A stretch of DNA of 64,000 bases from NCBI GenBank assembly GCA_040752895.1, contig JBFMHN010000005.1, forward strand, positions 139,626 through 203,625, given 5' to 3'. The stretch comes from Pseudomonadota bacterium. Its GTDB lineage: Bacteria > Pseudomonadota > Alphaproteobacteria > GCA-2746255. The position numbers and the translations under genes are program-made. Positions 40,047 through 60,329 of the stretch are shown piece by piece (the first letter of the stretch is position 1; every line of letters begins with the position of its first letter). The notes below the pieces were generated by a model. The model had not been told where the DNA came from. It saw only the letters and a program-made list of their open reading frames with translations, and did no database searches.

Positions 40047-41762
40047 ATGCCAACGCCCAACCTCGGCATCCCGCACCTCGCAGCCTCCCAGAACCAGAAG
40101 GAGGTCACCGCCAACGACGCCTTCGACCGGCTCGACGAGGCGATGAACGACACCGCCTCGGTCGACTGCTCGGCCGGCAGCACCACCGTCGACGGCGCGA
40201 CCTTCACCCGCAACTTCGAGCTGGTGCTGACCGGCGCGCCGGCCGCCGCCTTCACGCTCAGCGTGCCCGACGGCAAGCGCTTCTTCCTGGTGAGGAACGC
40301 CACCGCGCAGGTCGCGACCGTGCAGCGGACCTCGGGCGGCGGCTCGGTCAACCTGACCGCGGGCCAGCGGCGCCTCCTCTACAACACCGGGACCGAGATC
40401 GTCGCCGCGGCGCCCGACGCCGCGGTGACCGGCGGCGGGGGCGGCGGGGGCGTGAGCGGCGCCGGCTTCCGCGGCGCGCTGGTCAAGCTCAGCGCCGACG
40501 CCAGCATCGCCAACCAGTCCCAGACCGCGATCGGCTGGGCGACCACGCTGTTCGACACCGACGGGTTCTGGAGCGGCGGCAGCCCGACCCGCCTCACGGT
40601 GCCCGCCGGCGTCTCCAAGGTGGTGGTCGTCGCCGGAGTCCAATGGGGCGCCAGCGCCACGGGCGACCGCTGGGTCGAGGTGCACCGGAACGGGGTCGAG
40701 GTGGAGGGGCTCCCCGGCAGCCTGATCGGGCCGCTCGGGAGCAGCAGCCGGGCCCGTCAGGCGGTGGTCTCGGCGCCGATCCAGGTGAGCCCGGGCGACT
40801 ACTTCGAGCTCCTGGCCTGGCAGAACAGCGGCGGCGCGCTCGCCGTCGAGGCCGACCCGCAGACCTGGTTCGCGGTCATGGCGGTCGACACCATCGCCCA
40901 GGCCTCGGAGGTTCGCGCGGTCCAGGTCAAGCGCACCACCGACCAGGCGATCGCGACCTCGACCATGACCGCGGTCGCCTGGGAGGCGGCCGAGTTCGAC
41001 GACGGCAGTATGTGGTCGGCCGGCAGCCCGACGCGGCTCACCGTGCCCGCCGGCGTCTCCAAGGTCCGGCTCAGTGCCAACCTGCGCTTCGCCACCACCT
41101 CGAGCGCGGGCTACCGCTTCATCCGCATCACGAGGAACGGCGCAAGCTTCGCCGGCCGGGCCGAGGACCTCGACACGGTGCCGAGCAACGGCGACAACGC
41201 GCTCTCGGTCACCACCGGCATCGTCCCGGTCCAGCCCGGCGACTACTTCGAGCTCGAGTGCTGGCAGAGCTCGGGCGGAAGCCTGAACGTCGCCGCCGGC
41301 GACGCCACCTGGTTCAACATGGAGGTGGTGGAACGGGTCGCGCCCGCCTTTCGCGGTGCGCTCGTCAACCTCACCGCCACCGAGCCGGTCCCGACCTCGA
41401 CCGACACGGCGCTCGCCTGGGACGCCGTGGTCTACGATACCGACGGCTTCTGGTCGGCCGGCAATCCGACGCGCCTCACGGTTCCCGCCGGCGTCTCCAA
41501 GGTGCGGCTCAAGGGCAACATCAGCTGGGGCTTCGGCGGCACCGGCTACCGGCACATCTGGGCCAGCAAGAACGGCGCCCTGTTCCCCGGTGCTGGCAAG
41601 GAGAGCGACGAGGGCGACAGCGGCGTCCAGAACTTCGCCTCTGCTGTCGTGCCTGTGGTCACCGGCGACTACTTCGAGTTTATCGCCCGCCAGACTTCGG
41701 GCTCCACCAAGAATGTGCTCGCCGCTGCCGACACCTGGTTCGCGATCGAGGTGGTCGAGTAG
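40047..41762 (+). CDS. tail fibre protein: DUF2793 N-terminal domain, Gly run, three tandem ~140 aa repeats
   Basis: N-terminus PNLGIPHLAASQNQKEVTANDAFDRLD (DUF2793-like). Repeats each contain (F/V)RGALV..., GFWSAG(S/N)PTRLTVPAGVSKVRL and PGDYFEL....(W/T)F..EVVE. Confidence 0.6.
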   Translation: MPTPNLGIPHLAASQNQKEVTANDAFDRLDEAMNDTASVDCSAGSTTVDGATFTRNFELVLTGAPAAAFTLSVPDGKRFFLVRNATAQVATVQRTSGGGSVNLTAGQRRLLYNTGTEIVAAAPDAAVTGGGGGGGVSGAGFRGALVKLSADASIANQSQTAIGWATTLFDTDGFWSGGSPTRLTVPAGVSKVVVVAGVQWGASATGDRWVEVHRNGVEVEGLPGSLIGPLGSSSRARQAVVSAPIQVSPGDYFELLAWQNSGGALAVEADPQTWFAVMAVDTIAQASEVRAVQVKRTTDQAIATSTMTAVAWEAAEFDDGSMWSAGSPTRLTVPAGVSKVRLSANLRFATTSSAGYRFIRITRNGASFAGRAEDLDTVPSNGDNALSVTTGIVPVQPGDYFELECWQSSGGSLNVAAGDATWFNMEVVERVAPAFRGALVNLTATEPVPTSTDTALAWDAVVYDTDGFWSAGNPTRLTVPAGVSKVRLKGNISWGFGGTGYRHIWASKNGALFPGAGKESDEGDSGVQNFASAVVPVVTGDYFEFIARQTSGSTKNVLAAADTWFAIEVVE

Positions 41763-43106: not shown

Positions 43107-43260
43107 CGGCGCGCCCTGTCCGCCGGTCGTGCCCTACAGCCAGAAGTTCCTCGCCCGGGCGGCCGACGAGCTCGACCGCCTGCCGCCCGGCTCGGCCATT
43201 GAGCAGATGCTCGCCGACTACCAGGTCATGCGGGATCAGGCACGGGCGTGCGGGCATTAG
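43027..43260 (+). CDS. o-spanin (Rz1-like lipoprotein)
   Basis: Signal peptide with lipobox LLAAC. Starts inside the i-spanin gene in another frame. Confidence 0.5.
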   Translation: MTSWKPLLAALAIATSLLAACATAPSDGAPCPPVVPYSQKFLARAADELDRLPPGSAIEQMLADYQVMRDQARACGH

Positions 43261-43428
43261 GCGGATCTGAAACTCAGCACGCATTTAGCTGTTTTTCAGG
43301 GATTCCCTTGTGCGATCGTTCGTGATTCACTGATCGGGGCGCGGTCGATTGGCGGGGCGGCCATTCTTGGCGGTGCAGTAGCCGGGGCAATTTGGGGTCC
43401 GCGCAACTGTCTGGGAGCAAGGGGACCG

Positions 43429-44649
43429 GTGGCGAACGAAACGAGGCTGATACGGTCGCAAGGGCTGTTCATCGAGGCCGAGGCGCCACTAGGTCTTGAC
43501 GAGTACCAGCAATTCACCACAAAAACCGACAAAAACGAGCGGCAAGGCATCGCCGGCTTAGGATTTGTTCTCCTCGGGTTGTTTGGGGAGGCGGGCAGCC
43601 TGCTAAGCGAACTCAAAAAGAAACAGCGAGATAAAGATTCCTACATCGCATACCACGACTCGGTTATCGAGGAGTTTGGCGATGTGCTTTGGTACTTCGC
43701 CAATGCAGCGCTTCGAGCCAACTTACCCCTCGCCGCGATCGCCAAGCTCTTACCGGCTAGTCTCGCCGACTGGGACTATCACGGCCGCGAGGGTGCATCC
43801 ACCTTCGTCGATCTCCAAACCGCAAAGGCAGAATTTAAGGGACCCCTCTCGACGGACATCGTCGAGCGTCGACTCTTGGCCCTAGCCGGGAATGTCGGTC
43901 AGCTCCTGGAGAATTTCAGCAACCGCAGATTTGATACTAATCGTGACGCGCTCTCGGCTGACCTCGTTGAAATCTTTCGCGCCCTAGTGGCTGCTGCCGA
44001 TGATGCCGACGTGAGTCTCGATGAGGCAGCACGCCGCAACATCGCAAAGACCTTGAGTCGATGGCCGATCGACCGCAAGTGGGATCCACCGTATGACGAT
44101 GATTTCGATGAGGACGAACGCCTGCCGCGCCGGATCGTGATGGTGTTCAAGGAGAAAGATGTTGGAGGGAAAAAATACGTCATCCAGCAGTGCAACGGCA
44201 TCAACATCGGGGATCGTCTGACGGACAACCGACTTGAACAAGATGATTATCGTTTTCATGACGTATTTCATCTCGCGTATGCAGCGATCCTTGGGTGGTC
44301 ACCGGTCATCCGGGCGCTGTTCAAGGTCAAGCGGAAGAGTCGTCCCGAGATCGATGAGAATCAAGACGGTGCGCGCGCCATCCTCATCGAGGAAGGCGTT
44401 TCCACCTGGATTTTTAACCATGCTCTTCGAAATCAACATTTCCGCAGCATCGATTCCCTCGACTATTCCCTTCTAAAGGCTGTTCGCGAACTCGTGAAAG
44501 GATATGAAGTGGAAAGCCGTCCGCATTGGCAGTGGGAGCTCGCCATCCTTGAAGGGTTCCGCGTATTCAGAGAAGTGTGCGCGCATCGGGGCGGCACCGT
44601 GATCGCCGACCTGAATGAGCACACCATTACGTTCAAAGGACCAAAATGA
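43429..44649 (+). CDS. MazG-like nucleoside triphosphate pyrophosphohydrolase domain fused to an uncharacterized ~250 aa C-terminal domain
   Basis: MazG motifs GLGFVLLGLFGEAGSLLSELKK and EEFGDVLWYFANAA. Local GC ~50% versus ~68% in the flanks. Confidence 0.6.
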   Translation: MANETRLIRSQGLFIEAEAPLGLDEYQQFTTKTDKNERQGIAGLGFVLLGLFGEAGSLLSELKKKQRDKDSYIAYHDSVIEEFGDVLWYFANAALRANLPLAAIAKLLPASLADWDYHGREGASTFVDLQTAKAEFKGPLSTDIVERRLLALAGNVGQLLENFSNRRFDTNRDALSADLVEIFRALVAAADDADVSLDEAARRNIAKTLSRWPIDRKWDPPYDDDFDEDERLPRRIVMVFKEKDVGGKKYVIQQCNGINIGDRLTDNRLEQDDYRFHDVFHLAYAAILGWSPVIRALFKVKRKSRPEIDENQDGARAILIEEGVSTWIFNHALRNQHFRSIDSLDYSLLKAVRELVKGYEVESRPHWQWELAILEGFRVFREVCAHRGGTVIADLNEHTITFKGPK

Positions 44650-45338
44650 GCCGCACCAATAAGAGTGAAGCACGGCAATTCGTCGAACGGCTAGCAGCGC
44701 TTCGTTTCGACACCGTTTTCAATCCCTATGCCCAAGCGTGCCCAGAATGGGACAGCGGCAACGCTGCGGCAACTCGTCGACGTAACCTTGAGCTCGTCCT
44801 TGAAGCCGCGATGGAAAAAGGGGTCGAGTCAATCTGGGTCGCGCGGGACCTAGGATATCGAGGTGGCCGTCGAACCGGTCTCGCCCTAACCGACGAAGTG
44901 CATCTTTCCTATCATGCGGCGCTGTTTGGTACGCCACCGCTCGCCCGCGCGACCAAGGGGCCCGCGGTAGCCGAACGAACCGCTGCCGTTGTATGGCAGA
45001 TGCTTCGCGCGATCGATCGTCCAATCTTTCTCTGGAATGTCTTCCCGCTTCACCCCCATCAGCCAGAAGACCCGATGTCGAATCGCTGCCACACGCGAGC
45101 GGAGCGGGCCGCTTGTCGACCCTTATTGGTCTGGCTTCTGGACGCGCTGCAGCCTCGCAACATAGTTGCTATTGGCCGGGATGCGCACGCTGCGCTTGAC
45201 GATCTGGGCGTAAGGGCAACGTCAGTGCGCCACCCGAGCTACGGCGGACAGCCGGAGTTCGTCAGCGGTCTAGCAGCTCTGTACGGTTTGTCCTCTATGG
45301 CGTCGAGCAATACTTCCCAGTTGCGTATGTTCCGGTAG
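44646..45338 (+). CDS. uncharacterized protein, possibly uracil-DNA glycosylase superfamily-like
   Basis: Start overlaps the stop of the MazG-like gene (ATGA). Gly-rich ARDLGYRGGRRTGLALTDE and C-terminal RHPSYGG loosely resemble the two UDG-superfamily motifs. Weak. Confidence 0.3.
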   Translation: MSRTNKSEARQFVERLAALRFDTVFNPYAQACPEWDSGNAAATRRRNLELVLEAAMEKGVESIWVARDLGYRGGRRTGLALTDEVHLSYHAALFGTPPLARATKGPAVAERTAAVVWQMLRAIDRPIFLWNVFPLHPHQPEDPMSNRCHTRAERAACRPLLVWLLDALQPRNIVAIGRDAHAALDDLGVRATSVRHPSYGGQPEFVSGLAALYGLSSMASSNTSQLRMFR

Positions 45339-45357
45339 CTTCATGACTCTGACCGAG

Positions 45358-45968
45358 TCACGCTGATCGCACCCAGTCAAGAGGAGCGCCAACGTATCCG
45401 TGCTGGCCAACGGACCGGATCCACTCGATAAATTCCGAAACGAGCGCATCGGGAAAATGGTTCTTATGTCCTCGGCCAGCGCATAGATCAAAGCCTCCGC
45501 AGTTACGGAAGCGCTTTAGGATTTTCGGACCTGTTCCGCCCCAATAGACATAATCAGTGCTCACGAGAACCCGATCAGTTTGTGTGTCATTCTCGATGTT
45601 TTTCTGATTCGCGCTTCCATCGGCATGGCTGTGATGGGAGTTCTCTTGATTCCAGCGACCCGACTTTGGATCACGGTGATAGATGTTATCGCCGAACGCC
45701 TGTTTCTTGCTTCCCGACAGCCTTGGCCTTTTGGGGAAGAAACGAGGGTCATGCCAATACTCGTCGAATGTCAGGGTCTCCGTGACGCGCATCGCGAACA
45801 CAATGTGGGCGTCACGGCCGCGCGACTTTGATCCAGTGCCTACCACCCAGTCGCCGACTTGGGCCATCCGCCTTATTATTGGCTTGCAGGTGGCGAGCGT
45901 GCAGAACCCATAGAAAGGGTTCGGCGCAAAGCCGTAGTCACGAGCGACGACGTAGGTGTACAGCGTCA
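45358..45968 (-). CDS. uncharacterized Cys/His-rich protein downstream of the TIR-like gene
   Basis: Conserved-looking N-terminus VTLYTYVVARDYGFAPNPFYGFCTLATCKP. C-terminal HHSHADGS and CGGFDLCAGRGHKNH. Proposed GTG start 10 nt after the TIR stop. The longer ATG-initiated ORF (to 46170) would overlap the TIR gene in another frame. Confidence 0.4.
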
Positions 45969-45979
45969 CCTGTCCATGC

Positions 45980-46456
45980 TCATCGGCAGCTATAGCGCTT
46001 GATGGGTCGATCCGACCGCAACTCACCAGAAGGAGTCCTCCAGTCGTTGATCTGTCCTGTGACCGCATCAATGATGCGATCGCTGTTCCATCCAACCACC
46101 GCATCGGCATATTTATCGAGTGCGTCTGGTACATCACACTCGGCGGCACCATGCGCCCAAACGCCGACAATGCGCTTTTCCGCTTTGTGGGCGTACTCGA
46201 TTTCCCAATCGACCCAGGGACTGTTACGAGTCTGCGGGGAGATATAGACGATCATGGTCCCAGCCCAGCGAATGCGCGGGGCTAGGATTTCGGACTTGAT
46301 GTAGTCGGGATTGGACGCGTCATTCGGCTTCTCAGCGTTGATGGACCCGTCCCGTATACTGAAGCCCTTATTCCCGAGAAGCTCCTTCAGCTTCCCCAGC
46401 CCTTCGTCGTCCTCATGAACGTGGCTGATGAAGACGTTTCGGGTTTCCTCGGTCAT
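45980..46456 (-). CDS. TIR-like domain protein (DUF1863 / Thoeris ThsB-like)
   Basis: N-terminal VFISHVHEDDEGLGKLKELL and later SPWVDWEIEYA match the bacterial TIR_2 pattern. Confidence 0.6.
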   Translation of the reverse strand: MTEETRNVFISHVHEDDEGLGKLKELLGNKGFSIRDGSINAEKPNDASNPDYIKSEILAPRIRWAGTMIVYISPQTRNSPWVDWEIEYAHKAEKRIVGVWAHGAAECDVPDALDKYADAVVGWNSDRIIDAVTGQINDWRTPSGELRSDRPIKRYSCR

Positions 46457-46560
46457 CGAGAATCTCCTCTATCGTTTCGTCCCATCCGTAGGGTGCCCAA
46501 CTCGGGGCAAGTCATCCTACCGTCTGCGACGTGTTGACCAGTCATTGATTTCTCGCTCAC

Positions 46561-47220
46561 TTAATCCGTCATGACCAAACGGCGCATGTGGTTGCGGTAG
46601 CTGATCAGGCGCTGGTTGACCCTTTCCATATCGGCCTTCAGTTCGTCGTATTTCGGAAACTTTTGTTGAATCTCCTGTGGATCGATCACCAGATCGCCGC
46701 TGGTCTTGTTCAGCTCGTTCTCATACCAACGGCGGAATCGCGCTTGCCACATCGTCAGGTGAGGCCGTAGCCCCTCGTTCAGAACCTCGATCGATAGCTT
46801 GATAATCTTCTGGGTGCTGCTGTGCCGCACCTTGTTGACGGGGACCGATTTTACGAGGTCCCGAGTGACGGCGAAGAATTCGTACCAACTGTTATAGATT
46901 TCAGCGATGACGTCATGGTCGAAATCGATCGGCAATCCAATTTTCCGTGTGCTCAGCTCCACCCATATTGCATAAGCTACCTGGCGATCCGTCATGTTTG
47001 GTTTGAGTCGAAGCTTGCCGGTGCCCGTTCCTATCTCGGCTTGGTCGATCTCGAAATCCTTCCAGCTGGAGCCACCAGAAAACCAACGCCAGCCAGCATA
47101 GACGAGAACCGCCACCAAGAGCGCGATACCAACCCAGAAGCTGACTTGGATCGATACCGACCAGTCCGAAAGGAGCCGTACGGACAAGAGGTCGATATTC
47201 GATTGGCTTGTGGTGTCCAT
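46561..47220 (-). CDS. membrane-anchored uncharacterized protein (single N-terminal TM plus ~170 aa cytoplasmic domain)
   Basis: TM VSFWVGIALLVAVLVYAGWRWF. Begins 5 nt after the upstream TIR gene's stop. Low GC. Confidence 0.45.
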   Translation of the reverse strand: MDTTSQSNIDLLSVRLLSDWSVSIQVSFWVGIALLVAVLVYAGWRWFSGGSSWKDFEIDQAEIGTGTGKLRLKPNMTDRQVAYAIWVELSTRKIGLPIDFDHDVIAEIYNSWYEFFAVTRDLVKSVPVNKVRHSSTQKIIKLSIEVLNEGLRPHLTMWQARFRRWYENELNKTSGDLVIDPQEIQQKFPKYDELKADMERVNQRLISYRNHMRRLVMTD

Positions 47221-47224
47221 CGAA

Positions 47225-47779
47225 TCACTCGCACTGCCGGTTGTACGTGAAGCGATCTCTGGGATTTTCGATCAAATGGGCATGTGTCGTTCGCCGCTGA
47301 AACGCCGCCTCGATGGCCTGCCATAGCTCGTCCGACGATTGCGGGTAGGCCATCCAACGGGCGAAGCAATCGCTTCCGGCAGCCTTCTTTTCAGGGGTCA
47401 GCAGATTCCTGTTCAGGCGATCCGGAAAGGCGCCATCCTCGGGGAAGGCAGGCATCTTGATGGCAAGCAACCCATTGGCAAGCCCGTTCTGCGGCGCCCG
47501 CAGCGATGCCTGGATTTCCCAGTCGACGTAGCGCCTCGCCCATGTGCATCTGCCCAGCATCACCAGCGTCACAGTCGAGTCGCGAATGTAAAGTTCGCGG
47601 ATGCGTCGCATGACGTACTCGGGGTCAGTGCTGTCAATGATGTCCTGAGCCATTGTCTGCCCTAGTCCGCGAGCAATGAACAGATTCTGCCCGTGATCAA
47701 ATGTGTTAACAAAGCGATCAACCCACGGCTGGTCGGCATGGTGATATGAGACGAAGCATTTGCGTCTCGTTGCATTCAT
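47225..47779 (-). CDS. TIR-like domain protein (DUF1863 / ThsB-like), second copy
   Basis: KCFVSYHHADQPWVDRFVNTF and RRYVDWEIQASL are classic TIR_2 motifs. Confidence 0.65.
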   Translation of the reverse strand: MNATRRKCFVSYHHADQPWVDRFVNTFDHGQNLFIARGLGQTMAQDIIDSTDPEYVMRRIRELYIRDSTVTLVMLGRCTWARRYVDWEIQASLRAPQNGLANGLLAIKMPAFPEDGAFPDRLNRNLLTPEKKAAGSDCFARWMAYPQSSDELWQAIEAAFQRRTTHAHLIENPRDRFTYNRQCE

Positions 47780-47797
47780 GGCTGACCCCAGAGATGC

Positions 47798-50560
47798 CTA
47801 TTCCACCTTTACCGCATCGGCGAGGCCGAGTTCCTGCAGGACCTGCCGAATCTCGTTCGCAAGGCCGGTCGCGGAATCGGCAGAGACAGTGACCGAGAAC
47901 TCGAGTCCGATCCTGAGTTCCGAGCCGGAGCGGAGCTTTGGCAGAATCTTCGTACCAAGGCGGTTCCAGACCTCCGGGGGGACGGCGCCCACAACGCGGA
48001 GTGTCCGTGTTGAAGTTGCGGGCTCGGGGGCGGGGCCAAGCGTGGGACCAGGTTCCGAAACGGGCGGGACCGTGGGGCCCGGCTCGGGCTCCGGACTTGG
48101 GGTGGGCATCGCTGGCTTCCCGGCCCTGAGCGCTTCCGCCGTGCTCTTCCTCAACAGGAACACTCCGGCGTCGAAAGCGACCTCGTCAGACGCAACCGCC
48201 TCCTGGAACCAGATCCGCTCGTACGTGCCGTCGGCCTTCTTGCCCGATGCCAAGCCGAAATCGCCGCGTGTCACGAACTCGACGATCTTGGACTTCAAAG
48301 TGGCGTCGGGATCGACGAGCCGAGTCAGCGAGCCATTGAGAAAGCTCTGTCGAAGGCTCGCAAGGGGCCAGGCGCCCGAGTCCTTCAGCGCCGGTGGCCA
48401 GTTGCGCTCGATGTATCCAGCGCCGACCGACTCGTTCAGGAGCGCTTCGGACTTGAGGGCGGCGATGACGCGCCCGCAAAGCGTCTCGCCGCTTGACGAA
48501 TGTCCCGCACCGAGGTCGATCACCTTGAGCCCATCCGCTTCCTGGCCGTCGGCAAGGATGGCGAAGCGGTAGCCGCCCCAGACCTCGTCCTTGGCGGCCT
48601 CTTCCGCGTCTTTGACCTTCGACTGGAGTTCCGCCCGGTCATTGCGGTCGAACTCCCCGCCCAGCGTGCCATCGGCCACCTCGCGCGCGACCCGCCTCCA
48701 TGCGAGCGCGAGCTCCACCTTCTCGCGCAGATCCCGCCCTGGCTTCTTGAGGCACCACACGAGCGCACCCGGATAGAGTCGGGGCGACTTGCCGCGGCTT
48801 CGAGTCCACTCGGCGATCTGGGTGCGGAGCGAGCCGGTGCCGGACCATTCCGTTTCGGGATCGGCTGCGACGAGCGTCAATCTGGGCGTGTCAGGAATCT
48901 CCGCGCCGTCGCGCGGGAAGGGGACGACAGGGATGCTGGCGCCACGCCGGAACTCGTCCTCGACGAGCTTCCGCATGGCGGGTTTGACCTCTGTCTCATG
49001 GTCAAGGGACGCCCGACGGTCGCTCACAACCTTCTTCATCGTCGGCTGATAGCCGATCCGGAATCCGTCCGTCCCCACCTTGCGCAGGAAGTAGGAGCGG
49101 TCTTCAAGCGCGAAGGCGGCATTATCGATGGTCGTCGTATCCAGCTCCGGCTCGCCGAGCGCGAAGCGGAGCTCCGGGAGATGCGCGACCTTGTCGGTCT
49201 GCCCGCCCGACGATTCGAACAAGATCGCGGTGCCAACCCGCTTGTGAATGTCGCGGAGCGGTCCCTTGGTATCGGCGTCGAGCGCCCTCGCATGAGCCTG
49301 CTCGCCGGCGATATCTGTGTCGATCGCAGCGACGAGGCGGGACTCGCCGAGCTGGCCCAGCACGACGCTGCGGAAGCCCGGCTCGGCCAGCGGTGCCGAC
49401 CCGAGCGTGATCAACGGCTCGGTGCGCGCCTTGCGGAACGCGTCCTGGGCCGCCAGCGATATCCACTGGGCCAGCATCGCGAGCGTGCCGCGCGTCTGCT
49501 GGTACTGCGGCAGCGGCTGCCATTTCCGTTGGAAGACTGACAGCGTCGCCGGATGGAACGGGTAACACGTCTCGAAGCGGCGCTGGAGGAACTCGCGCGC
49601 CTTGGCCTCGGTCGCCGCGGAATCCACCGCTGTCCACTCGGGCGGGAGCTGGGCGCGCCGCTCGAAGCACCAGTCGCCAAAGGCCCGCGCGACGCTCTTG
49701 CGGATCCTTTCGCTGCCAAGGTCCTGGAACAGCCGCCGGCGCACGACCTCGCTGATCTCGGTCTCGTCGTTGGCGATCAGGTCCTTGGCGACGCGGCGCA
49801 CCACCTTCGAAATCTTGTCCTGCCACTCCTGATCCCACTCGGTCATCTCCACCTGGCTGCGGGGAAGGGAAATCACGCATGCGCCGTGCGTAGTCCCCGT
49901 CGTGGCGACGGTCAGGTTCTGAATGAACGCATGGAATGAATCAGCGCTGCCCCGGTGGCGATTGAGGAAGTTTAGGACCTCGTCGAATAGCAGAAGCACA
50001 GGTGCCCCGGCGGCCTGGAAGACCCGCGCGATCGCGTCGGTGCCCGGCGGCGTGGTTTTCGCCGAAGGACCCAGCGCCTCGACGCCCTTGTCTCCGGCGA
50101 GCTGGCGAGCGATGTCGATCCACGGCGTCTCACGCCCCTCGCGCGGATCCCATGCGTTGCCGACAAAGACCGCGACCTTCCCTTTGGGCACGGTTGCGAC
50201 GCCCGCCTCCCGCACAAGATCGGCCACGCCCGAATAGCCCGCTGCCGCCTCGCCATTGCTTACGAGGTGGTAGAGCGTCGTGAGCGTATGCGTCTTGCCG
50301 CCACCGAACTGGGTGATCAGCGTGAGCACCGGCGCGGTATTCTCGGTCTTTCCTGAGAGCCGCCGAAGCACCATTCCTGCATGCTCGCGCAACGCCCTGG
50401 TGAAGCAGGTGCGGGCGAAGAACTGGTCGGGCTTCCGGTAATCCTCCGGCGCCGTCCCGGCCACGACCTGCTCAAGCGCGATGGCGAACTCGTCGGGGTT
50501 AAACGACCGGCCTTCGCGGACTTCCTTGCGCGGCGTCGCGACCTTGTACCAAGGTTCCAT
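47798..50560 (-). CDS. DUF499 family ATPase (COG1483-like), defense-associated
   Basis: 920 aa. P-loop ITQFGGGKTHTL and Walker B LLLFDEVLNF. The protein-level assignment to the DUF499 family rests mainly on the P-loop context and the adjacent DUF1156 partner. Confidence 0.6.
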   Translation of the reverse strand: MEPWYKVATPRKEVREGRSFNPDEFAIALEQVVAGTAPEDYRKPDQFFARTCFTRALREHAGMVLRRLSGKTENTAPVLTLITQFGGGKTHTLTTLYHLVSNGEAAAGYSGVADLVREAGVATVPKGKVAVFVGNAWDPREGRETPWIDIARQLAGDKGVEALGPSAKTTPPGTDAIARVFQAAGAPVLLLFDEVLNFLNRHRGSADSFHAFIQNLTVATTGTTHGACVISLPRSQVEMTEWDQEWQDKISKVVRRVAKDLIANDETEISEVVRRRLFQDLGSERIRKSVARAFGDWCFERRAQLPPEWTAVDSAATEAKAREFLQRRFETCYPFHPATLSVFQRKWQPLPQYQQTRGTLAMLAQWISLAAQDAFRKARTEPLITLGSAPLAEPGFRSVVLGQLGESRLVAAIDTDIAGEQAHARALDADTKGPLRDIHKRVGTAILFESSGGQTDKVAHLPELRFALGEPELDTTTIDNAAFALEDRSYFLRKVGTDGFRIGYQPTMKKVVSDRRASLDHETEVKPAMRKLVEDEFRRGASIPVVPFPRDGAEIPDTPRLTLVAADPETEWSGTGSLRTQIAEWTRSRGKSPRLYPGALVWCLKKPGRDLREKVELALAWRRVAREVADGTLGGEFDRNDRAELQSKVKDAEEAAKDEVWGGYRFAILADGQEADGLKVIDLGAGHSSSGETLCGRVIAALKSEALLNESVGAGYIERNWPPALKDSGAWPLASLRQSFLNGSLTRLVDPDATLKSKIVEFVTRGDFGLASGKKADGTYERIWFQEAVASDEVAFDAGVFLLRKSTAEALRAGKPAMPTPSPEPEPGPTVPPVSEPGPTLGPAPEPATSTRTLRVVGAVPPEVWNRLGTKILPKLRSGSELRIGLEFSVTVSADSATGLANEIRQVLQELGLADAVKVE

Positions 50561-50573
50561 TGCGATCCCCCTC

Positions 50574-51533
50574 CTACGGTCTCTGCAGGCGCGCGAACAG
50601 GTCGGTCGCCGTTCTCTTCAATCGGGCCAAATTGGCGTAAGCCACGGGCTCAAACCCGCGACCGCCCGCGTACATCCGGTAGCGGATGCCGTCGGTCACG
50701 ATCACATCGCGCGGAATCCCGAGCGCCTCCACATACCCCTTCCCCTGTTCCAGCGCGCCTTCAACGCCCGCACCCAGGCGTTTGGCTTCGATCACGAGAT
50801 GACAGTTTTCCGGCGTGCGCGGCAGGGCCCGAAATACCGCGACGTCGATGTAGCGCCACTTGACGGCAATCCGCTCCGGCGGCCAGCCGAGCGCGCGCAA
50901 AAAAGGCACGATGAAATGGGCGATCAGCTCGTCCTCGCTCGGAGGTTCGCCAAAGGCCTGGGAATCCTGGAACAGCGGGACGAGATCGGCGGCCTGAGCC
51001 ACGATTCCCCGCAGCCCGTCAGGCACTTCATCGATCGGCGGTTCCTCGGCTGGAAGCTCAGGCAACGGTGCCGTTTGCCAATGCGTCGGCGGGGATTTGA
51101 TGAAGCGCTCCGTGAAATCGATCACGTCCTGGCTCCACACCCGCGAGCAGCGCGGCGGATTGGCGCCGAAGGCCTGGCCCGCGAACGTATGCGGCTCGGG
51201 GAGGCGGCACCAGCGCACCCGCCGGCCGTGTTGCAGGTCCCAGCCGTTCACGTCGTCGAACGCGTTCAGGTACAAGTAATCGCTGGCCACGAGACCGACC
51301 GCCGCGATCGTCGCAAGACCCGTGCGCAGCAGGATCGCATCTCCTACCGTGACTTCGCTTGCGAAGCGCCGTACGAAGCCGCCCTCGAACTCGTTATCGT
51401 CGCGTTCGGGTTTCCAGGCCCCTGCATCGCCCGGGCCGATCAACACGACGCCGTGCTTGAGCAGAACGTCGGCATAGGACCGCGATGCCGGCCCGGCCGA
51501 GACTTGCCACACTGTCCGAGCAGAGACGGTCAT
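50574..51533 (-). CDS. PD-(D/E)xK nuclease-like protein
   Basis: C-terminal HLVIEAKRLG (ExK) with an upstream acidic residue context. ATG at MTVSARTVWQ forms a 4-6 nt overlap with the stop of the upstream DUF1156 gene. Confidence 0.45.
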   Translation of the reverse strand: MTVSARTVWQVSAGPASRSYADVLLKHGVVLIGPGDAGAWKPERDDNEFEGGFVRRFASEVTVGDAILLRTGLATIAAVGLVASDYLYLNAFDDVNGWDLQHGRRVRWCRLPEPHTFAGQAFGANPPRCSRVWSQDVIDFTERFIKSPPTHWQTAPLPELPAEEPPIDEVPDGLRGIVAQAADLVPLFQDSQAFGEPPSEDELIAHFIVPFLRALGWPPERIAVKWRYIDVAVFRALPRTPENCHLVIEAKRLGAGVEGALEQGKGYVEALGIPRDVIVTDGIRYRMYAGGRGFEPVAYANLARLKRTATDLFARLQRP

Positions 51534-51537
51534 CGGT

Positions 51538-54500
51538 TCACCTCGGCACCGCGAGAAGCATCGCGTCGAGGAGGCGCTTCTCCTCGCTGCCCCTCGGGTA
51601 GAGAGCGGAGAGGGCATTGGCGAGCCGCAGGAAGTCCGGGCTGCGCTCCTGCTCGGCCTTCAGCAGCGCACGCAGCGCATTGGTGCGGCCGCCCGCCTGG
51701 AGCAGCATGGCCGCGTGGATGCGGTCGAGGGTCGTGGCCTCCCGCGCAGAAGCCAAGCTTTCTTCCGAGACGTCGACGGCCATGCGCCCGCTGCGGCCCC
51801 GTGCGCCGCGGCCGCGCACTTTCGGAGCCGCCTCCATTTCGGGGAACAGCATGCCCTGAAGGGGATTGACGCCAGTCGAGGTTCCCAGCTCGAGCTGAGT
51901 GGCAACCGCCTGGGCGCCTTCGTCGCCGAAGAGCTGCTTCGCCCGCTCGGCGATGGGCAGCAGGCGCACGACGCCCTTCTTCGTCTCGATGACGCGGCCT
52001 TCCCACTTGGGCAAGTCGATTCCGAGCGGCTGGGCAAAGCGACGAACCACGTCGAAGACCAGCGTGAAGCCCTTCGCCTTGCCGCGTGACGCGCCTTCTT
52101 CGTCCTCCTCGTCGTCCGCCGCCTCCTCGTCCTTGCCGTCGTCGCTTGCGTTCTCCGCTACTTCGCCGTTCGTGCTCTGTAGCGTCCAGAGGAACAGCGC
52201 CGTGAGCCGCGCGTCCTCTTCTACGGCGCCGGCCGCACCGTTGCGCGCGCGCGCTTCGGCGGTGCCGAGCACCTGGCCGAGCGCGCTCCGACCCACGACC
52301 TCCCACACCTTCTCCAGGTACTCGGCGAGCGCAACCTCGCGCCCGTCGGCCGTTTCGACTTTGGCATAACGACTGAAGATTTCGAGCGCCGGTCCGATGC
52401 AAGCGAAGACGAGGTCGGCGCCACGGACGCCCTCGCCCTGCAGGTGCTCCATCCAGTCGCCAACGCGCTTCGGCAGCTCTCGCAGAACGTCGGCCCAGTC
52501 GCCGATCGGCGCGTCGTCGGGACGCGGGCGGCAGATGAGATGGACGCTGGTTGCGAGGGCGGCGGACTCTCTCGCGCGCAATCGAGAGCCCATTTCTGTT
52601 GCAATTGGCCACGACCCGGTGATTGTCCAACCGCCACGGATCATGCCGGAGAGCAGCGCTTCCCAGCCCTCCGTCGTCTTATGAGCAAAAACGACTGAAC
52701 CGACACCGTCTTCGCACAGTACTCGGCGACCCTCGCCAAAGGCGCGCCCCATAGCGGTTTCGAAAAAAGCCTTTGTCTTTGGCTGGCCATCCTCGGCTTC
52801 ATACCGCTCATCTTGCACGATTTCTTGACGTTTCGGCGTAAGTGGATTCGCCGCGTCAAACGGATCACGAAGGGCGTTCCGCTGAGCGAGAGACCGCTTG
52901 AGCCAGACAAAGAAAAAATCCGCCAATTCCGCGTAGCCAATCGCATCATAGTATGGCGGGTCGGTAAACCAGACCTGACAAGACGCGTCGGGTAACGGCG
53001 ACCTTGTGGCATCCGCGACTTGGACCTGTGCGGTTGAGCTGGTTGGAAAGTAACATTGGGAAATAGTATGACCGCTTCTTTCAACTGAGCTGTCGAAACT
53101 TCCGCTGGAGGACTCAGTAAGAACCGCCTCAGCGTAATCCCAAACCATTGAAATGGCTTGGCGCGCAAAGAGATTTACTGGACACTCAGCATCAAGTTTC
53201 CACCGAACAAATGAATTTCCAAGGTCGATCGATTTGTTAAGGCACAGCGCCATCAAATCTTGCAGTGCTGGTTGCTCTTCCAGTGTTGAGCATATTGTCT
53301 TCGCAAGGGCATGCGCGGTGGCGAGCTGTCGCGGGTTTAGCAAGTCCTTCCACTGCTTGACTCCGTAGTTGGGCACCCTAAAGCAGTTTGTATTTCTCGG
53401 CGGCAACGGTTCATCCGGCACCGGACAGAGACCCTGCTTCCCGTTGCGTTCCCATTCGTCGAGTAGCTTCGCCACGTGCACACGCGCCTTGCGCACCGCC
53501 TCGTAATCGCGCTCAGTCGGCAGCCGATAGTGCCGACCGGTCTCGCCCGGCTTTAGCGTCACCACCGCAAGCATCCGTGCTCCTGCCGAGCGTTGACCCT
53601 TCTCGTCGAACACCACGTCTGCACCGCCGCGCTGGGTGGAAAGTTGTGCTCGTACTCGCTCGGGTGGCAGGACCGCACCGCAGGAGATGCAGGTCGCCTT
53701 GGCGCGAGTCACGGTGCCGCCCGGCACATCCTTCTCAGTCTTCGGCTCGAAGACCTGGAACTCGACGCGTGGCGGCTGGCCCTGTGAACGTTCGACCCGG
53801 TGGCGGAGCGCTCGCTTGCGGCTCGCCTTTTTGCTGAGCCAGAACGAACGCGCGAGCGGAATTTCGGCGCCGCAGTTGGGCGACTCGCAGCGTACGGTGC
53901 GCACCCAGAGATAGGCGATCGGCACCGCACCATCCGGGTCCTTCGGATAGAAGCCGGCGAGTTCCTTTTCCGCCTTCTTCTTGATCTCCGCGCCGATGAG
54001 GCGAAGCTCTTCTGCGAGCTTCGGGCCATGGCGCGGGATGTCCTCTAGCATCACTTTCAGGATCAAACAGGCGACGGGGTTGAGATCGCTCGCGAAGGCC
54101 TCGCAGCCCACCCGCAGCGCTTCCAGAGGGATCGAGCCGCCACCGGCGAACGGGTCCACGACCAGTGGCGGCTCTTCCCCATGCGCCGCCTTCACCAGCG
54201 CGCGGCTGACATCGAGATAGGTGCGGTTGGACGCGAGATCCCAGTTCGCAAAGTCGGCGACGAATTTGAGCAACGCCTTGCGCAGGTCCTCGTCCGTTGT
54301 GCCTGGATTGCAACCTGCGACCTGCCGCAGGAGCTTTTGCGCCTGCTCCTTGAACTCACGCGGACACAGTGGATCGCACGGATCGGGCCAGAGGAGACCG
54401 AGCAGGACCGCCCGGCTCGACGCCAATGGCCGCCGCGCCCACCAAAGATGGAGCGTGCTCGGGTGCCCATGACGGATCGACTTCTCCCGTGCCGCGTGCC

Positions 54501-54561
54501 GCGACACTTCGGCGATCGGGAAATCCACTTCGGCAAGACGCTTGCAGTCTTTGGGGATCAT
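51538..54561 (-). CDS. DUF1156 family (COG1743) adenine-specific DNA methyltransferase
   Basis: N-terminal MIPKDCKRLAEVDFPIAEVSRHAAREKSIRHGHPSTLHLWWARRPLA is the DUF1156 signature. Downstream motif I VVDPFAGGGSIPLEA and later TDPPYYD (motif IV). Confidence 0.8.
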   Translation of the reverse strand: MIPKDCKRLAEVDFPIAEVSRHAAREKSIRHGHPSTLHLWWARRPLASSRAVLLGLLWPDPCDPLCPREFKEQAQKLLRQVAGCNPGTTDEDLRKALLKFVADFANWDLASNRTYLDVSRALVKAAHGEEPPLVVDPFAGGGSIPLEALRVGCEAFASDLNPVACLILKVMLEDIPRHGPKLAEELRLIGAEIKKKAEKELAGFYPKDPDGAVPIAYLWVRTVRCESPNCGAEIPLARSFWLSKKASRKRALRHRVERSQGQPPRVEFQVFEPKTEKDVPGGTVTRAKATCISCGAVLPPERVRAQLSTQRGGADVVFDEKGQRSAGARMLAVVTLKPGETGRHYRLPTERDYEAVRKARVHVAKLLDEWERNGKQGLCPVPDEPLPPRNTNCFRVPNYGVKQWKDLLNPRQLATAHALAKTICSTLEEQPALQDLMALCLNKSIDLGNSFVRWKLDAECPVNLFARQAISMVWDYAEAVLTESSSGSFDSSVERSGHTISQCYFPTSSTAQVQVADATRSPLPDASCQVWFTDPPYYDAIGYAELADFFFVWLKRSLAQRNALRDPFDAANPLTPKRQEIVQDERYEAEDGQPKTKAFFETAMGRAFGEGRRVLCEDGVGSVVFAHKTTEGWEALLSGMIRGGWTITGSWPIATEMGSRLRARESAALATSVHLICRPRPDDAPIGDWADVLRELPKRVGDWMEHLQGEGVRGADLVFACIGPALEIFSRYAKVETADGREVALAEYLEKVWEVVGRSALGQVLGTAEARARNGAAGAVEEDARLTALFLWTLQSTNGEVAENASDDGKDEEAADDEEDEEGASRGKAKGFTLVFDVVRRFAQPLGIDLPKWEGRVIETKKGVVRLLPIAERAKQLFGDEGAQAVATQLELGTSTGVNPLQGMLFPEMEAAPKVRGRGARGRSGRMAVDVSEESLASAREATTLDRIHAAMLLQAGGRTNALRALLKAEQERSPDFLRLANALSALYPRGSEEKRLLDAMLLAVPR

Positions 54562-60308: not shown

Positions 60309-60329
60309 CGTCTCTGGGGGTGCTGAACG

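What the first reader, a model, noticed from the sequence alone, without database searches (positions are those of the whole stretch)
43260..45338. Low-GC two-gene cassette at the prophage flank: MazG-like NTP pyrophosphohydrolase fusion translationally coupled to a possible UDG-fold protein
Immediately after the spanin genes, GC drops to ~50%. The first gene encodes a clear MazG-type all-alpha NTP pyrophosphatase domain fused to an unknown ~250 aa domain. The second gene overlaps its stop (ATGA) and has weak Gly-rich and HPS-type motifs reminiscent of uracil-DNA-glycosylase-fold enzymes. Nucleotide-pool-targeting enzymes (dCTP deaminase, dGTPase, MazG-like) are established anti-phage effectors. 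A pyrophosphohydrolase coupled to a DNA glycosylase-like partner could deplete or sanitise a non-canonical (phage-modified) nucleotide and excise it from DNA. I cannot match the pair to a named system.
Basis: partly seen in the sequence, partly recalled or inferred. Interest (0 to 1): 0.7.

Follow-up and report, generated by a model that had tools for sequence, protein, structure and literature searches.

The report
dUTPase-like/UDG pair in defence block
Two overlapping genes next to a prophage encode a dUTPase/MazG-type nucleotide pyrophosphatase and a SMUG1-like DNA glycosylase; they form one arm of a six-gene, horizontally transferred block that has been predicted, but never shown, to defend bacteria against phages, probably by attacking an unusual DNA base.

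Summary

The two-gene reading is too narrow. One 4.36-kb block (43436-47764) of six genes, A, B, Nmad2, ThsB-TIR, a 219-aa membrane protein and a second ThsB-TIR, is shared with Iodidimonas at 75% nt identity, while the flanks diverge. In metagenomes A lies directly upstream of B in 60 of 71 informative loci. In 20 of 21 well-flanked loci the pair sits beside TIR-Nmad2 or an HTH/ImmA/papain-protease operon. The window's TIR and Nmad2 are homologous to two genes of the validated E. coli system DS-4.

A MazG-MazG_C + UDG + NMAD system is already published as an untested prediction (DefensePredictor 2026).

Best guess: a Dut/Ung-like "hydrolyse the precursor, excise the base" module aimed at a uracil-type non-canonical base. 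Activity, substrate and defence phenotype are all untested. Verdict: a new member of a predicted kind, of moderate interest.

The parts
43261..43428 (+). Intergenic leader upstream of gene A. It has an SD-like GGGAG/AGGGG just before the GTG. No promoter was identified.
   Evidence: Sequence read. The consensus scan found no sigma-70-like site here. The stretch is not conserved with Iodidimonas, where homology starts at 43436.
43429..44649 (+). Gene A, 406 aa: an N-terminal dimeric-dUTPase/MazG-type all-alpha NTP pyrophosphohydrolase domain (about aa 20-215) fused to MazG_C (about aa 220-404).
44646..45338 (+). Gene B, 230 aa: a divergent UDG-superfamily DNA glycosylase, structurally nearest to family 3 (SMUG1). 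Its ATG overlaps the stop of A (ATGA).
   Evidence: Pfam UDG 35.1 bits against cutoff 24.3. AF2 pLDDT 82.5. Foldseek pdb: SMUG1 entries 5h93, 9gk0 and 1oe5 at E 4e-7 to 2e-6, TM about 0.55, followed by UdgX and family 4. hhalign lines up D68/N85, G70/G87, N131/N163 and H196/H239. Invariant motifs. Overlap.
45358..45969 (-). Nmad2 gene, 203 aa from the GTG at 45969. It is convergent on B with a 19-nt gap and lies 10 nt downstream of the ThsB1 stop.
   Evidence: Pfam Nmad2 244 bits. 50% identity, E 9e-55, to the Nmad2 protein of validated system DS-4. Start inferred from the sequence and from the 203-aa Iodidimonas gene call.
45980..46456 (-). ThsB-type TIR protein 1, 158 aa, immediately upstream of Nmad2.
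   Evidence: Pfam ThsB_TIR 86.5 bits. PADLOC ThsB PDLC00418 223 bits, full length. 36% identity, E 8e-34, to the DS-4 TIR protein. A TIR gene lies directly upstream of Nmad2 in 27 of 33 loci.
46561..47220 (-). 219-aa protein with one predicted N-terminal transmembrane helix (by eye) and a soluble domain shared with patatin-type proteins. Candidate effector or sensor.
   Evidence: No Pfam, PADLOC, NCBIfam or PHROG family. hhalign against the N-terminus of the 880-aa patatin proteins of Rhizobium/Mesorhizobium loci: probability 99.6%, E 5e-25 (BLASTP E 2e-8). It recurs in TIR/Nmad2-type loci.
47225..47779 (-). ThsB-type TIR protein 2, 184 aa. It is the first gene of the minus-strand array, 18 nt downstream of the HmaC stop.
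   Evidence: Pfam ThsB_TIR 60.2 bits, plus PADLOC ThsB/PDC-M50B hits. Junction sequence.
43436..47764 (.). The conserved six-gene, low-GC block as a whole.
   Evidence: A single blastn alignment to Iodidimonas muriae L007 10005-14318, 74.9% identity over 4362 nt. Block proteins are 71-86% identical, while flanking tail proteins are 37-62% identical. There is no homology downstream.

Best explanation
Genes A and B form a translationally coupled 'precursor hydrolase + base excision' module, analogous to the housekeeping Dut/Ung pair but aimed at a non-canonical uracil-type pyrimidine. The leading candidate is 5-hydroxymethyluracil or a 5-substituted derivative, and plain uracil is not excluded.

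Proposed mechanism:
- The dimeric-dUTPase/MazG-type domain of A hydrolyses the corresponding (d)NTP to the monophosphate, starving phage DNA synthesis of its special nucleotide.
- The MazG_C domain adds a second, still unknown nucleotide- or DNA-directed activity. The literature calls it a predicted kinase.
- B, a SMUG1-like glycosylase with a catalytic Asp, flips out and excises the base from phage DNA. This leaves abasic sites that block replication, as shown for the stand-alone UDG-fold defence enzymes Brig1, Brig2 and Brig3.

In this window the pair is not autonomous. It is one arm of a six-gene, laterally acquired block. The other arm (ThsB-TIR, 219-aa membrane protein, ThsB-TIR, Nmad2) resembles a Thoeris-like sensing/effector module and is homologous to the TIR-Nmad2 end of the validated system DS-4.

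Shown: gene structure, folds, conserved residues, block boundaries, co-occurrence, and homology to DS-4 parts.
Inferred: every enzymatic activity, the substrate, the defence phenotype, and cooperation between the two arms.
For: - Fold of B: SMUG1 is the top match (E 4e-7, probability 1.00). The alignment places D68 on the catalytic N85 of SMUG1, N131 on N163 and H196 on H239, and all three are invariant in the family. The roles of N85, H239, G87, M91 and F98 are taken from PMC7922111, which also describes 5-hmdU as an important SMUG1 substrate.
- Coupling: the ATGA overlap. A lies directly upstream of B in 60 of 71 informative metagenomic loci and 4 of 5 viral-contig loci, and B directly follows A in 14 of 19 genome loci.
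- Link to 5-hmdU chemistry: in six A-anchored loci B is absent or decayed and a 5-hmdU DNA kinase (Pfam HMUDK_hel, 355 bits) is present instead. L089 has TIR, Nmad2, HMUDK, A and B on one strand.
- Defence context: 20 of 21 well-flanked loci carry TIR/Nmad2 or the HTH/ImmA-I42/C1-protease operon. Neighbours include Hma, type I RM, Shedu, DUF499 and a dCTP deaminase, on conjugative plasmids, near IS elements and on a prophage flank.
- Relation to a validated system: the window's TIR and Nmad2 are 36% and 50% identical to those of DS-4.
- Precedents: Brig1 (PMC11078745), Brig2 (10.1101/2025.10.29.685425) and the overlapping Brig3-BapA operon (10.64898/2026.02.25.707755).
- Prior prediction: the same domain set was predicted to be defensive by DefensePredictor.
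Against: - No activity, substrate or phage phenotype has been measured for any member. The literature states that none of these domains is validated.
- The first MazG acidic motif is partly degenerate, with only E54 invariant and Ser/Gly where canonical MazG has Glu (my reading). The Pfam MazG score is below threshold.
- The B-SMUG1 sequence alignment is weak (hhalign E 0.011, probability 3.9%), so residue equivalences rest on co-linearity with the structural match. The motif-A loop (aa 72-78) has pLDDT below 50.
- B occurs without A in 8 of 71 loci, and A without B in the Acidobacteriota loci, so the pair is not obligate.
- In the one DS-4 plating record I read, the phage was lambda, which has canonical DNA, and the reduction was about 0.9 log. 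TIR-Nmad2 systems therefore need not target modified DNA.
- MazG_C has no fold or profile match, so half of protein A is unexplained.
Confidence: 0.45

Rival explanations
1. Self-protection or signal-control module. The partner genes (TIR-Nmad2; elsewhere TS, dNMP kinase and 5-hmdU DNA kinase) generate a toxic or signalling non-canonical nucleotide. A-B is the housecleaning antidote: A hydrolyses the excess nucleotide and B removes any misincorporated base from host DNA. This limits autoimmunity or resets the system.
For: - In no locus with enough flanking sequence to judge does A-B lack a partner module, with one exception among 21 well-flanked loci.
- DS-4 contains a complete route to 5hmdU nucleotides plus a DNA kinase, and in the record I read it reduced plating of lambda, a phage with canonical DNA.
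- MazG enzymes are classical housecleaning enzymes (abstracts of PMC3855555 and PMC10014863).
- The abstract of bioRxiv 10.1101/2022.06.09.495361 reports phage anti-defence genes that neutralise TIR and STING cyclic-nucleotide signalling. My recollection that these are MazG-like pyrophosphatases was not checked against the text.
Against: - The window and the other TIR/Nmad2-type loci contain no thymidylate-synthase-like, dNMP-kinase or HMUDK gene that could make a modified nucleotide. phmmer of the DS-4 TS, AK and HMUDK against the window found nothing at E<=1.
- DS-4 itself has no MazG or UDG, so an antidote is not required by that chemistry.
- The same A-B pair also partners with a completely different protease operon.
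Confidence: 0.2
2. dNTP-pool attack on ordinary phages. A depletes a canonical pyrimidine dNTP (dTTP or dCTP, or dUTP turnover) and B converts the resulting uracil-rich phage DNA into abasic sites and breaks. This would be a programmed 'thymineless death' of replicating phage DNA.
For: - Nucleotide-depleting defence enzymes are established (own knowledge: dCTP deaminase and dGTPase defences, Tal et al. 2022).
- A dCTP deaminase gene lies divergently adjacent to A on the Bradyrhizobium plasmid pK03D-1.
- The N-terminal domain of A is most like dUTPases.
- SMUG1-type enzymes excise uracil efficiently (one search uses SMUG1 as the uracil control).
Against: - A true dUTPase activity would lower, not raise, uracil incorporation.
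- The recurrent link with 5-hmdU DNA kinase and Nmad2 points to modified-base chemistry.
- No regulator that would hold such a toxic activity in check is evident within the pair.
Confidence: 0.15
3. Ordinary DNA-repair or nucleotide-sanitation genes that hitch-hike on mobile DNA, with no role in phage defence.
For: NCBI annotates the two genes simply as 'uracil-DNA glycosylase' and 'nucleoside triphosphate pyrophosphohydrolase family protein'. In Mesorhizobium L006 one flank is housekeeping metabolism.
Against: - The distribution is patchy and cross-phylum, with up to 76% identity between Alphaproteobacteria and Gemmatimonadota.
- The block is low-GC and the pair occurs on plasmids and near IS elements.
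- The pair is almost always next to TIR/Nmad2 or the protease operon.
- B is far from every canonical UDG family: NCBIfam family 4 scores 18-19 bits against cutoffs of 125-250, and a PDB sequence search gives only E 0.15.
Confidence: 0.07

Closest known systems
Predicted 'MazG / MazG-C + NMAD + UDG' defence system of DefensePredictor (DeWeirdt, Mahoney & Laub, Science 2026, Fig. 6F and S12B). The paper cites Burroughs et al. 2015 NAR for earlier predictions of several of these domains.
   Same: The domain set is the same: an NTP pyrophosphohydrolase (MazG) with MazG-C, a UDG, and a nucleotide-modification-associated domain. It is likewise sometimes found in defence islands.
   Different: I could not see the figure or its sequences, so identity of the family is inferred from the domain names only. 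That system is a prediction, and the authors state that none of these domains has been experimentally validated. The window adds two ThsB-TIR genes and a 219-aa membrane protein in the same transferred block.
DS-4 ('NTTI'), a validated five-gene E. coli defence system: thymidylate synthase, dNMP kinase, 5-hmdU DNA kinase, TIR, Nmad2.
   Same: The TIR to Nmad2 adjacency is the same, and both proteins are homologous: 36% identity (E 8e-34) and 50% identity (E 9e-55). Metagenomic locus L089 joins TIR, Nmad2, HMUDK, A and B on one strand.
   Different: The window has no thymidylate-synthase-like, dNMP-kinase or HMUDK gene. It has the dUTPase-like/MazG_C protein and the UDG instead, plus a membrane protein and a second TIR.
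Brig1, Brig2 and Brig3-BapA: UDG-superfamily anti-phage DNA glycosylases.
   Same: They have a UDG fold, a defence-island context and low-GC mobile loci. Brig3-BapA is an overlapping two-gene operon of a glycosylase plus an accessory enzyme, and Brig2 targets thymidine-hypermodified phages.
   Different: B is nearest to SMUG1 (family 3), whereas the nearest relative of Brig1 is a family-4 UDG. No entry described as Brig1 or Brig3 appears among the top 50 Foldseek matches. B's partner is a nucleotide pyrophosphatase-MazG_C fusion encoded upstream, not a glucosyl hydrolase. B is embedded in larger multigene systems, and its activity is untested.
SMUG1 (family 3 UDG) together with dimeric dUTPase: the housekeeping 'sanitise and excise' logic of Dut/Ung.
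   Same: These are the best structural matches of B (SMUG1) and of the N-terminal domain of A (dimeric dUTPase). The positions of the catalytic, base-reading and motif-B residues are retained.
   Different: Sequence identity is only 15-19% for B and 10-12% for A. Motif A reads ARDLGYRGGRRTG, with Asp in place of Asn and three invariant Arg, instead of GMNPGPFGMAQTG. Motif B reads HPSYGG instead of HPSPRN. A carries an extra MazG_C domain.
Thoeris (ThsA + ThsB).
   Same: There are two ThsB-type TIR proteins, one matching a PADLOC ThsB model over its full length at 223 bits. A candidate effector gene lies between them.
   Different: No ThsA was found by PADLOC or Pfam, meaning no SIR2/SLOG or Macro domain. 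The TIR gene is instead coupled to Nmad2.

Membership tests
UDG superfamily (Pfam PF03167) | The sequence matches the family profile above the curated threshold. | tested here: met
   35.1 bits against a gathering score of 24.3, E 1.7e-8, aa 102-199.
UDG superfamily (Pfam PF03167) | An alpha/beta UDG fold. | tested here: met
   The AF2 model has pLDDT 82.5 and pTM 0.83. Apart from two SRP GTPase entries, the top 50 Foldseek PDB matches are all UDG-superfamily enzymes: SMUG1, UdgX, family 4 and UNG. Eighteen matches have E<=1e-3.
UDG superfamily (Pfam PF03167) | Motif A with a water-activating Asp/Asn, and motif B with HPS. | tested here: met
   R67-D68-L-G-Y and R195-H196-P-S-Y-G-G are invariant in 18 diverse and 42 close homologues. 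They align to SMUG1 N85 and H239.
UDG superfamily (Pfam PF03167) | N-glycosidic bond cleavage activity. | not testable with these tools
   This needs an enzyme assay on defined oligonucleotides.
SMUG1 (UDG family 3) | Signature motifs GMNPGPFG...TGVPF and HPSPRN, with a catalytic Asn. | tested here: not met
   B has ARDLGYRGG...TGLAL and HPSYGG, with Asp at the catalytic position. Identity to SMUG1 structures is 15-19%. B is the nearest structural neighbour of family 3 but not a member.
UDG family 4 (NCBIfam TIGR00758 / NF040953) | A score above the curated cutoff. | tested here: not met
   18-19 bits against cutoffs of 125 and 250. A PDB profile search gave E 0.15 to TM0511.
MazG / all-alpha NTP pyrophosphohydrolase superfamily | A Pfam MazG profile match above threshold. 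| tested here: not met
   18.2 bits for the whole protein and 20.5 bits for the N-terminal half, against a cutoff of 22. Some close homologues do carry a precomputed PF03819 hit.
MazG / all-alpha NTP pyrophosphohydrolase superfamily | The all-alpha fold shared by MazG, dimeric dUTPase and HisE. | tested here: met
MazG / all-alpha NTP pyrophosphohydrolase superfamily | An acidic metal-binding constellation (ExxE ... ExxD). | tested here: inconclusive
   E54, E81, E82 and D85 are invariant, but the second acid of the first motif is Ser/Gly. No structural superposition of the active site was possible.
MazG_C (Pfam PF18722) | A profile match above threshold. | tested here: met
   270-273 bits against a cutoff of 29.7, covering profile positions 4-188 of 190.
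MazG_C (Pfam PF18722) | The predicted nucleotide kinase activity, as labelled in the literature. | not testable with these tools
Predicted MazG-MazG_C / UDG / NMAD defence system (DefensePredictor Fig. S12B) | MazG + MazG-C, UDG and NMAD genes occur together in one locus. | tested here: met
   The window has A, B and Nmad2 within 2.6 kb. The same trio is found in Iodidimonas, Rhizobium, Mesorhizobium, an R. leguminosarum plasmid and many metagenomic loci.
Predicted MazG-MazG_C / UDG / NMAD defence system (DefensePredictor Fig. S12B) | Protection against phage. | not testable with these tools
   The authors state that none of these domains has been experimentally validated.
DS-4 (validated, E. 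coli) | A TIR protein followed by an Nmad2 protein. | tested here: met
   Homology of both proteins. The gap between the two genes is 10 nt in the window.
DS-4 (validated, E. coli) | Thymidylate-synthase-like, dNMP kinase and 5-hmdU DNA kinase genes. | tested here: not met
   phmmer of the three DS-4 proteins against all window ORFs gave no hit at E<=1.
Thoeris | A ThsB TIR protein. | tested here: met
   PADLOC ThsB 223 bits, and Pfam ThsB_TIR 86.5 and 60.2 bits.
Thoeris | A ThsA effector (SIR2-SLOG or TM-Macro). | tested here: not met
   None of the seven genes from A to HmaC (43429-50560) gave a ThsA, SIR2, SLOG or Macro hit in PADLOC or Pfam.

The most novel reading that the evidence does not exclude
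The two arms of the block form a single sensing circuit that reads phage DNA chemistry. The SMUG1-like glycosylase, helped by the pyrophosphatase-MazG_C protein, liberates a phage-specific modified base or nucleotide. The coupled ThsB-TIR/Nmad2 pair then uses this molecule, for instance through TIR base-exchange on NAD+, to build a phage-specific signal that activates the membrane or patatin effector. This would be a new Thoeris-like type in which the trigger is a non-canonical nucleobase rather than a phage protein.
Probability: 0.06. Interest if true: 0.85.

Novelty: new member of a known kind. Interest (0 to 1): 0.45.

Why it matters
Three UDG-fold glycosylases (Brig1, Brig2, Brig3) are now known to defend bacteria by excising modified bases from phage DNA. 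The family here is far larger, with at least 576 motif-matched hits in metagenome contigs and thousands of protein clusters. It is structurally nearest to SMUG1, the 5-hydroxymethyluracil glycosylase. It is also almost always coupled to a dUTPase-like pyrophosphatase and embedded in multigene systems.

If the proposed model is right, this would be the first defence module that attacks both the nucleotide precursor and the incorporated base of a non-canonical pyrimidine. It would also give a function to three uncharacterised domains: MazG_C, Nmad2 and the 219-aa/patatin N-terminal domain.

The modular swaps seen here give concrete, testable hypotheses about how validated but unexplained systems such as DS-4 work. 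Examples are UDG exchanged for a 5-hmdU DNA kinase, TIR-Nmad2 exchanged for an ImmA/papain-protease operon, and a membrane protein exchanged for patatin. New glycosylases and pyrophosphatases specific for modified bases would also be useful reagents for mapping DNA modifications.

Tried and rejected
- PADLOC (2023) and NCBIfam gave nothing useful for A, B or Nmad2. The system postdates those libraries.
- A sequence-profile search of the PDB with the B family gave only E 0.15 hits to family-4 UDGs. Structure prediction was needed to settle the fold.
- A permissive Pfam scan (E<=10) of MazG_C alone found nothing beyond MazG_C itself. Local hhalign of MazG_C against HMUDK, Tmk, Nmad2, cl3, TIR, B and others also found nothing.
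- A PDB sequence search with Nmad2 found nothing.
- tblastn of A and B against 50,697 phage genomes found no match. I first read this as 'no phage relatives', but phrog_229 matches A remotely, so the claim is limited to close relatives.
- No tRNA genes were found in the window, and no att-like direct repeats bracket the block. Whether the block is inside or just outside the prophage therefore remains unresolved.
- The promoter/terminator consensus scan found fewer sites than shuffled controls and is uninformative.
- Strict mutual exclusion of B and the 5-hmdU DNA kinase, and of the two partner modules, held in the A-anchored set. It was broken by L089 and L106 in the B-anchored set, so I rejected it as a rule.
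- Burroughs et al. 2015 (PMC4678834) is not held, so its original prediction could not be read.


Full report
**1. Observation**

- ORF A (43429-44649, +, GTG start, 406 aa) and ORF B (44646-45338, +, 230 aa) are present. They overlap in ATGA.
Gene A begins 168 nt later, and its GTG start fits the length (~407 aa) and N-termini of homologues.
- GC is 0.72-0.74 just upstream. It falls to 0.53-0.59 (one window at 0.62) between 43250 and 47750, then rises to about 0.65.
- Upstream lie a phage tail protein (Phage-tail_3/Rcc01698_C) and a tail/structural protein with three internal repeats. An endolysin (phrog_873, 192 bits) and two small overlapping ORFs that hit phage families follow. The second small ORF has a lipobox.
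- 'After the spanins at a prophage flank' is therefore reasonable, although the spanin identity is not proven.

**2. What the two proteins are**

*Gene A*
- A carries Pfam MazG_C (270 bits, aa 220-404). The MazG hit is sub-threshold (18-20 bits against a cutoff of 22).
- An AF2 model built on 44 homologues has pLDDT 84.2.
- E54, E81, E82 and D85 are invariant. The first acidic motif is partly degenerate.
- MazG_C has invariant HDxxH, KRKS and DENxDGAR motifs. It matches no solved fold and no other family in this gene set.
- The only functional label for MazG_C is 'predicted nucleotide kinase', from DeWeirdt et al. 2026.

*Gene B*
- B passes the Pfam UDG threshold (35.1 bits against 24.3). It is far from canonical families: NCBIfam family 4 scores 18-19 bits against cutoffs of 125-250, and a PDB profile search gives E 0.15.
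- Its AF2 model (pLDDT 82.5) matches SMUG1 from Geobacter, human and Xenopus best (E 4e-7 to 2e-6, probability 1.00, TM about 0.55). UdgX and family-4 UDGs come next.
- I verified a human SMUG1 sequence against PDB 9ggs and aligned it to the B-family profile. The score is weak (E 0.011), but the alignment is co-linear with the structural match.
- The alignment puts D68 on catalytic N85, G70 on G87, G74 on M91, L81 on F98, N131 on N163 and H196 on H239. D68, N131 and H196 are invariant in the family.
- The roles of N85, H239, G87, M91 and F98 in SMUG1, and 5-hmdU as an important SMUG1 substrate, are taken from PMC7922111.
- B is therefore a distinct UDG clade nearest to family 3. It has an Asp where SMUG1 has Asn, and an Arg-rich motif-A loop (GYRGGRR) that is poorly modelled.

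**3. The real unit is larger than two genes**

- Convergent on B, 19 nt away, is an Nmad2 gene (244 bits). Its likely start is the GTG at 45969, giving 203 aa.
- Ten nt upstream of Nmad2 is a ThsB-type TIR gene (PADLOC ThsB, 223 bits). Beyond it lie a 219-aa protein with one predicted TM helix and a second ThsB-type TIR gene.
- A single blastn alignment joins window 43436-47764 to Iodidimonas muriae at 74.9% identity over 4362 nt. This covers exactly these six genes and exactly the GC trough.
- The six proteins are 71-86% identical between the two genomes, whereas the flanking tail proteins are 37-62% identical. Downstream there is no homology: type I RM in Iodidimonas, Hma here.
- The six genes are therefore one laterally exchanged block.

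**4. Wider comparative picture**

*Loci anchored on A* (20 genome loci from Alpha-, Beta- and Gammaproteobacteria, Gemmatimonadota, Acidobacteriota and Cyanobacteria; identity reaches 76% across phyla)
- B directly follows A in 14 of 19 informative loci.

*Loci anchored on B* (at least 576 metagenomic hits with 80 kept, plus 5 viral-contig loci)
- A is directly upstream in 60 of 71 informative metagenomic loci, elsewhere in 3 and absent in 8.

*Partner modules*
- Among the 21 metagenomic loci with at least 4.5 kb on both sides, 12 carry a conserved operon. It encodes an ACP-like 115-aa protein, an XRE HTH, an ImmA/IrrE M78 peptidase fused to a chagasin I42 domain, a papain C1 peptidase and a 262-aa unknown.
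- Seven of the 21 carry TIR and/or Nmad2, one carries both and one carries neither.
- TIR is immediately upstream of Nmad2 in 27 of 33 cases.
- Several loci have TIR, Nmad2, A and B on one strand with tight spacing (L006, L033, L046, L060, L069).
- L089 has TIR, Nmad2, 5-hmdU DNA kinase, A and B on one strand.
- In six A-anchored loci, B is absent or decayed and a 5-hmdU DNA kinase (HMUDK_hel, 355 bits), often with a Tmk-like kinase, is present.

*The 219-aa protein*
- Its soluble domain is homologous to the N-terminal domain of the ~880-aa patatin proteins that occupy the equivalent place in Rhizobium and Mesorhizobium loci (hhalign probability 99.6%, E 5e-25).
- An R. leguminosarum plasmid has a metallophosphoesterase there. 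That slot therefore looks like a swappable effector.

*Genomic contexts*
- Contexts are mobile and rich in defence genes: conjugative plasmids, IS elements, Shedu, DUF499, type I RM, Hma, a dCTP deaminase and AAA+S8 pairs.
- Only 5 of 2.9 million viral contigs carry B.
- No isolated phage genome has a close relative of A or B. A does match the phage family phrog_229 remotely.

**5. Literature**

- DeWeirdt, Mahoney and Laub (Science 2026; PMC13092281) show a predicted system with MazG, MazG-C, NMAD and UDG in Fig. 6F/S12B. They state that none of these domains has been experimentally validated, and they cite Burroughs et al. 2015 for earlier predictions.
- Their validated system DS-4 comprises a thymidylate synthase, a dNMP kinase, a 5-hmdU DNA kinase, a 163-aa TIR protein and a 220-aa Nmad2 protein.
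- The window's ThsB1 and Nmad2 are 36% (E 8e-34) and 50% (E 9e-55) identical to the last two. The window has no homologue of the first three.
- UDG-fold defence glycosylases are established. Brig1 excises alpha-glucosyl-5hmC, and its nearest fold is a family-4 UDG. Brig2 acts against thymidine-hypermodified phages. Brig3-BapA is an overlapping operon of a 5hmC glycosylase plus an accessory glucosyl hydrolase.

**6. Mechanism**

- The best-supported reading is a Dut/Ung-like 'hydrolyse the precursor, excise the base' module aimed at a uracil-type non-canonical pyrimidine. It would operate as the nucleotide/DNA-targeting arm of a modular anti-phage system.
- The uracil-type assignment rests on three points. 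B is nearest to SMUG1 and retains the Asn that aligns with SMUG1 N163. The N-terminal domain of A is most like dUTPases. B is repeatedly exchanged with, or joined to, a 5-hmdU DNA kinase.
- All of this is inference. No activity or phenotype is known.
- The main rivals are (a) an antidote or signal-control module for partner-made nucleotides, (b) a canonical dNTP-pool or uracilation attack, and (c) plain repair genes on mobile DNA.
- In the one DS-4 plating record I read, the phage was lambda, which has canonical DNA, and the reduction was about 0.9 log. This warns that TIR-Nmad2 systems need not target modified DNA.

**7. Verdict**

- The UDG guess was right and can be sharpened to 'SMUG1-like'.
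- The 'unknown' domain is MazG_C.
- The cassette has six genes here, not two.
- The gene combination is already in the literature as an untested prediction.
- This instance is a new member of a predicted, uncharacterised kind. It is of moderate interest, mainly as a well-defined target for experiments.

Noticed in passing
window 47798-57995 (- strand): A complete Hma-type system: HmaC/DUF499 ATPase (PADLOC 314 bits), a 347-aa unknown, a DUF1156 methyltransferase, and an SNF2 helicase with a NOV_C domain. It is co-directional with the ThsB2 gene and ends only 18 nt from it, so the TIR array could be read through from the Hma operon.
   Followed up: partly
window 59259-62873 (+ strand); L028 10278-13761: An AAA ATPase followed by an S8 subtilase. 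The same kind of pair lies next to the A-B pair on an R. leguminosarum plasmid, which suggests another recurrent defence-island module.
   Followed up: no
L020 11862-15041; L027 8903-12068; L029 8826-11985: An uncharacterised five-gene operon is the commonest partner of A-B elsewhere, often with a 4'-phosphopantetheinyl transferase nearby. It encodes an ACP-like ~115-aa protein with a DSLS motif, an XRE HTH, an ImmA/IrrE M78 peptidase fused to a chagasin I42 inhibitor domain, a papain C1 peptidase and a 262-aa protein with no family. It is absent from the window.
   Followed up: partly
L013, L014, L015, L017, L018, L008; L089 4265-8558: Acidobacteriota loci and one Gemmatimonadota locus have gene A with a 5-hmdU DNA kinase (homologous to the DS-4 kinase, E 1e-22 to 1e-28) and no intact UDG. 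L089 carries TIR, Nmad2, the kinase, A and B on one strand.
   Followed up: partly
window 46561-47220 (-); L003 4027-6675: The soluble domain of the 219-aa membrane protein (aa 54-213) is homologous to the N-terminal domain (aa 16-155) of ~880-aa patatin-like proteins found at the equivalent position in Rhizobium and Mesorhizobium (hhalign probability 99.6%). The domain is unnamed and may be a shared sensor or regulatory domain.
   Followed up: partly
L001 6770-8004; L006 6809-8001; L021 10004-11182; L025 9932-11117; L088; L111: Gene A is split or frameshifted in several genomes, including one of two Iodidimonas muriae assemblies. The cause could be sequencing error or recurrent inactivation.
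   Followed up: no
window 12673-13020: A cluster of TGTGGC-rich repeats (units such as TGTGGCACCTGTGGCCA, in several copies) in the early region of the prophage-like element. They look like iterons or operators.
   Followed up: no
window 40468-41526: Three copies of a 177-nt repeat with a ~440-nt period inside the 571-aa tail/structural protein gene, giving a triplicated domain.
   Followed up: no
window 15086-15385 and 16482-16781: A 300-nt direct repeat (70% identity) spaced 1396 nt apart, with several smaller repeats in register. This indicates two tandem paralogous genes in the prophage-like region.
   Followed up: no
window 43429-44649: Gene A matches phrog_229 'MazG-like pyrophosphatase' across both domains (163 bits, aa 23-399), although tblastn finds no relative in 50,697 phage genomes. 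Phages therefore appear to encode remote relatives of the fusion protein.
   Followed up: no
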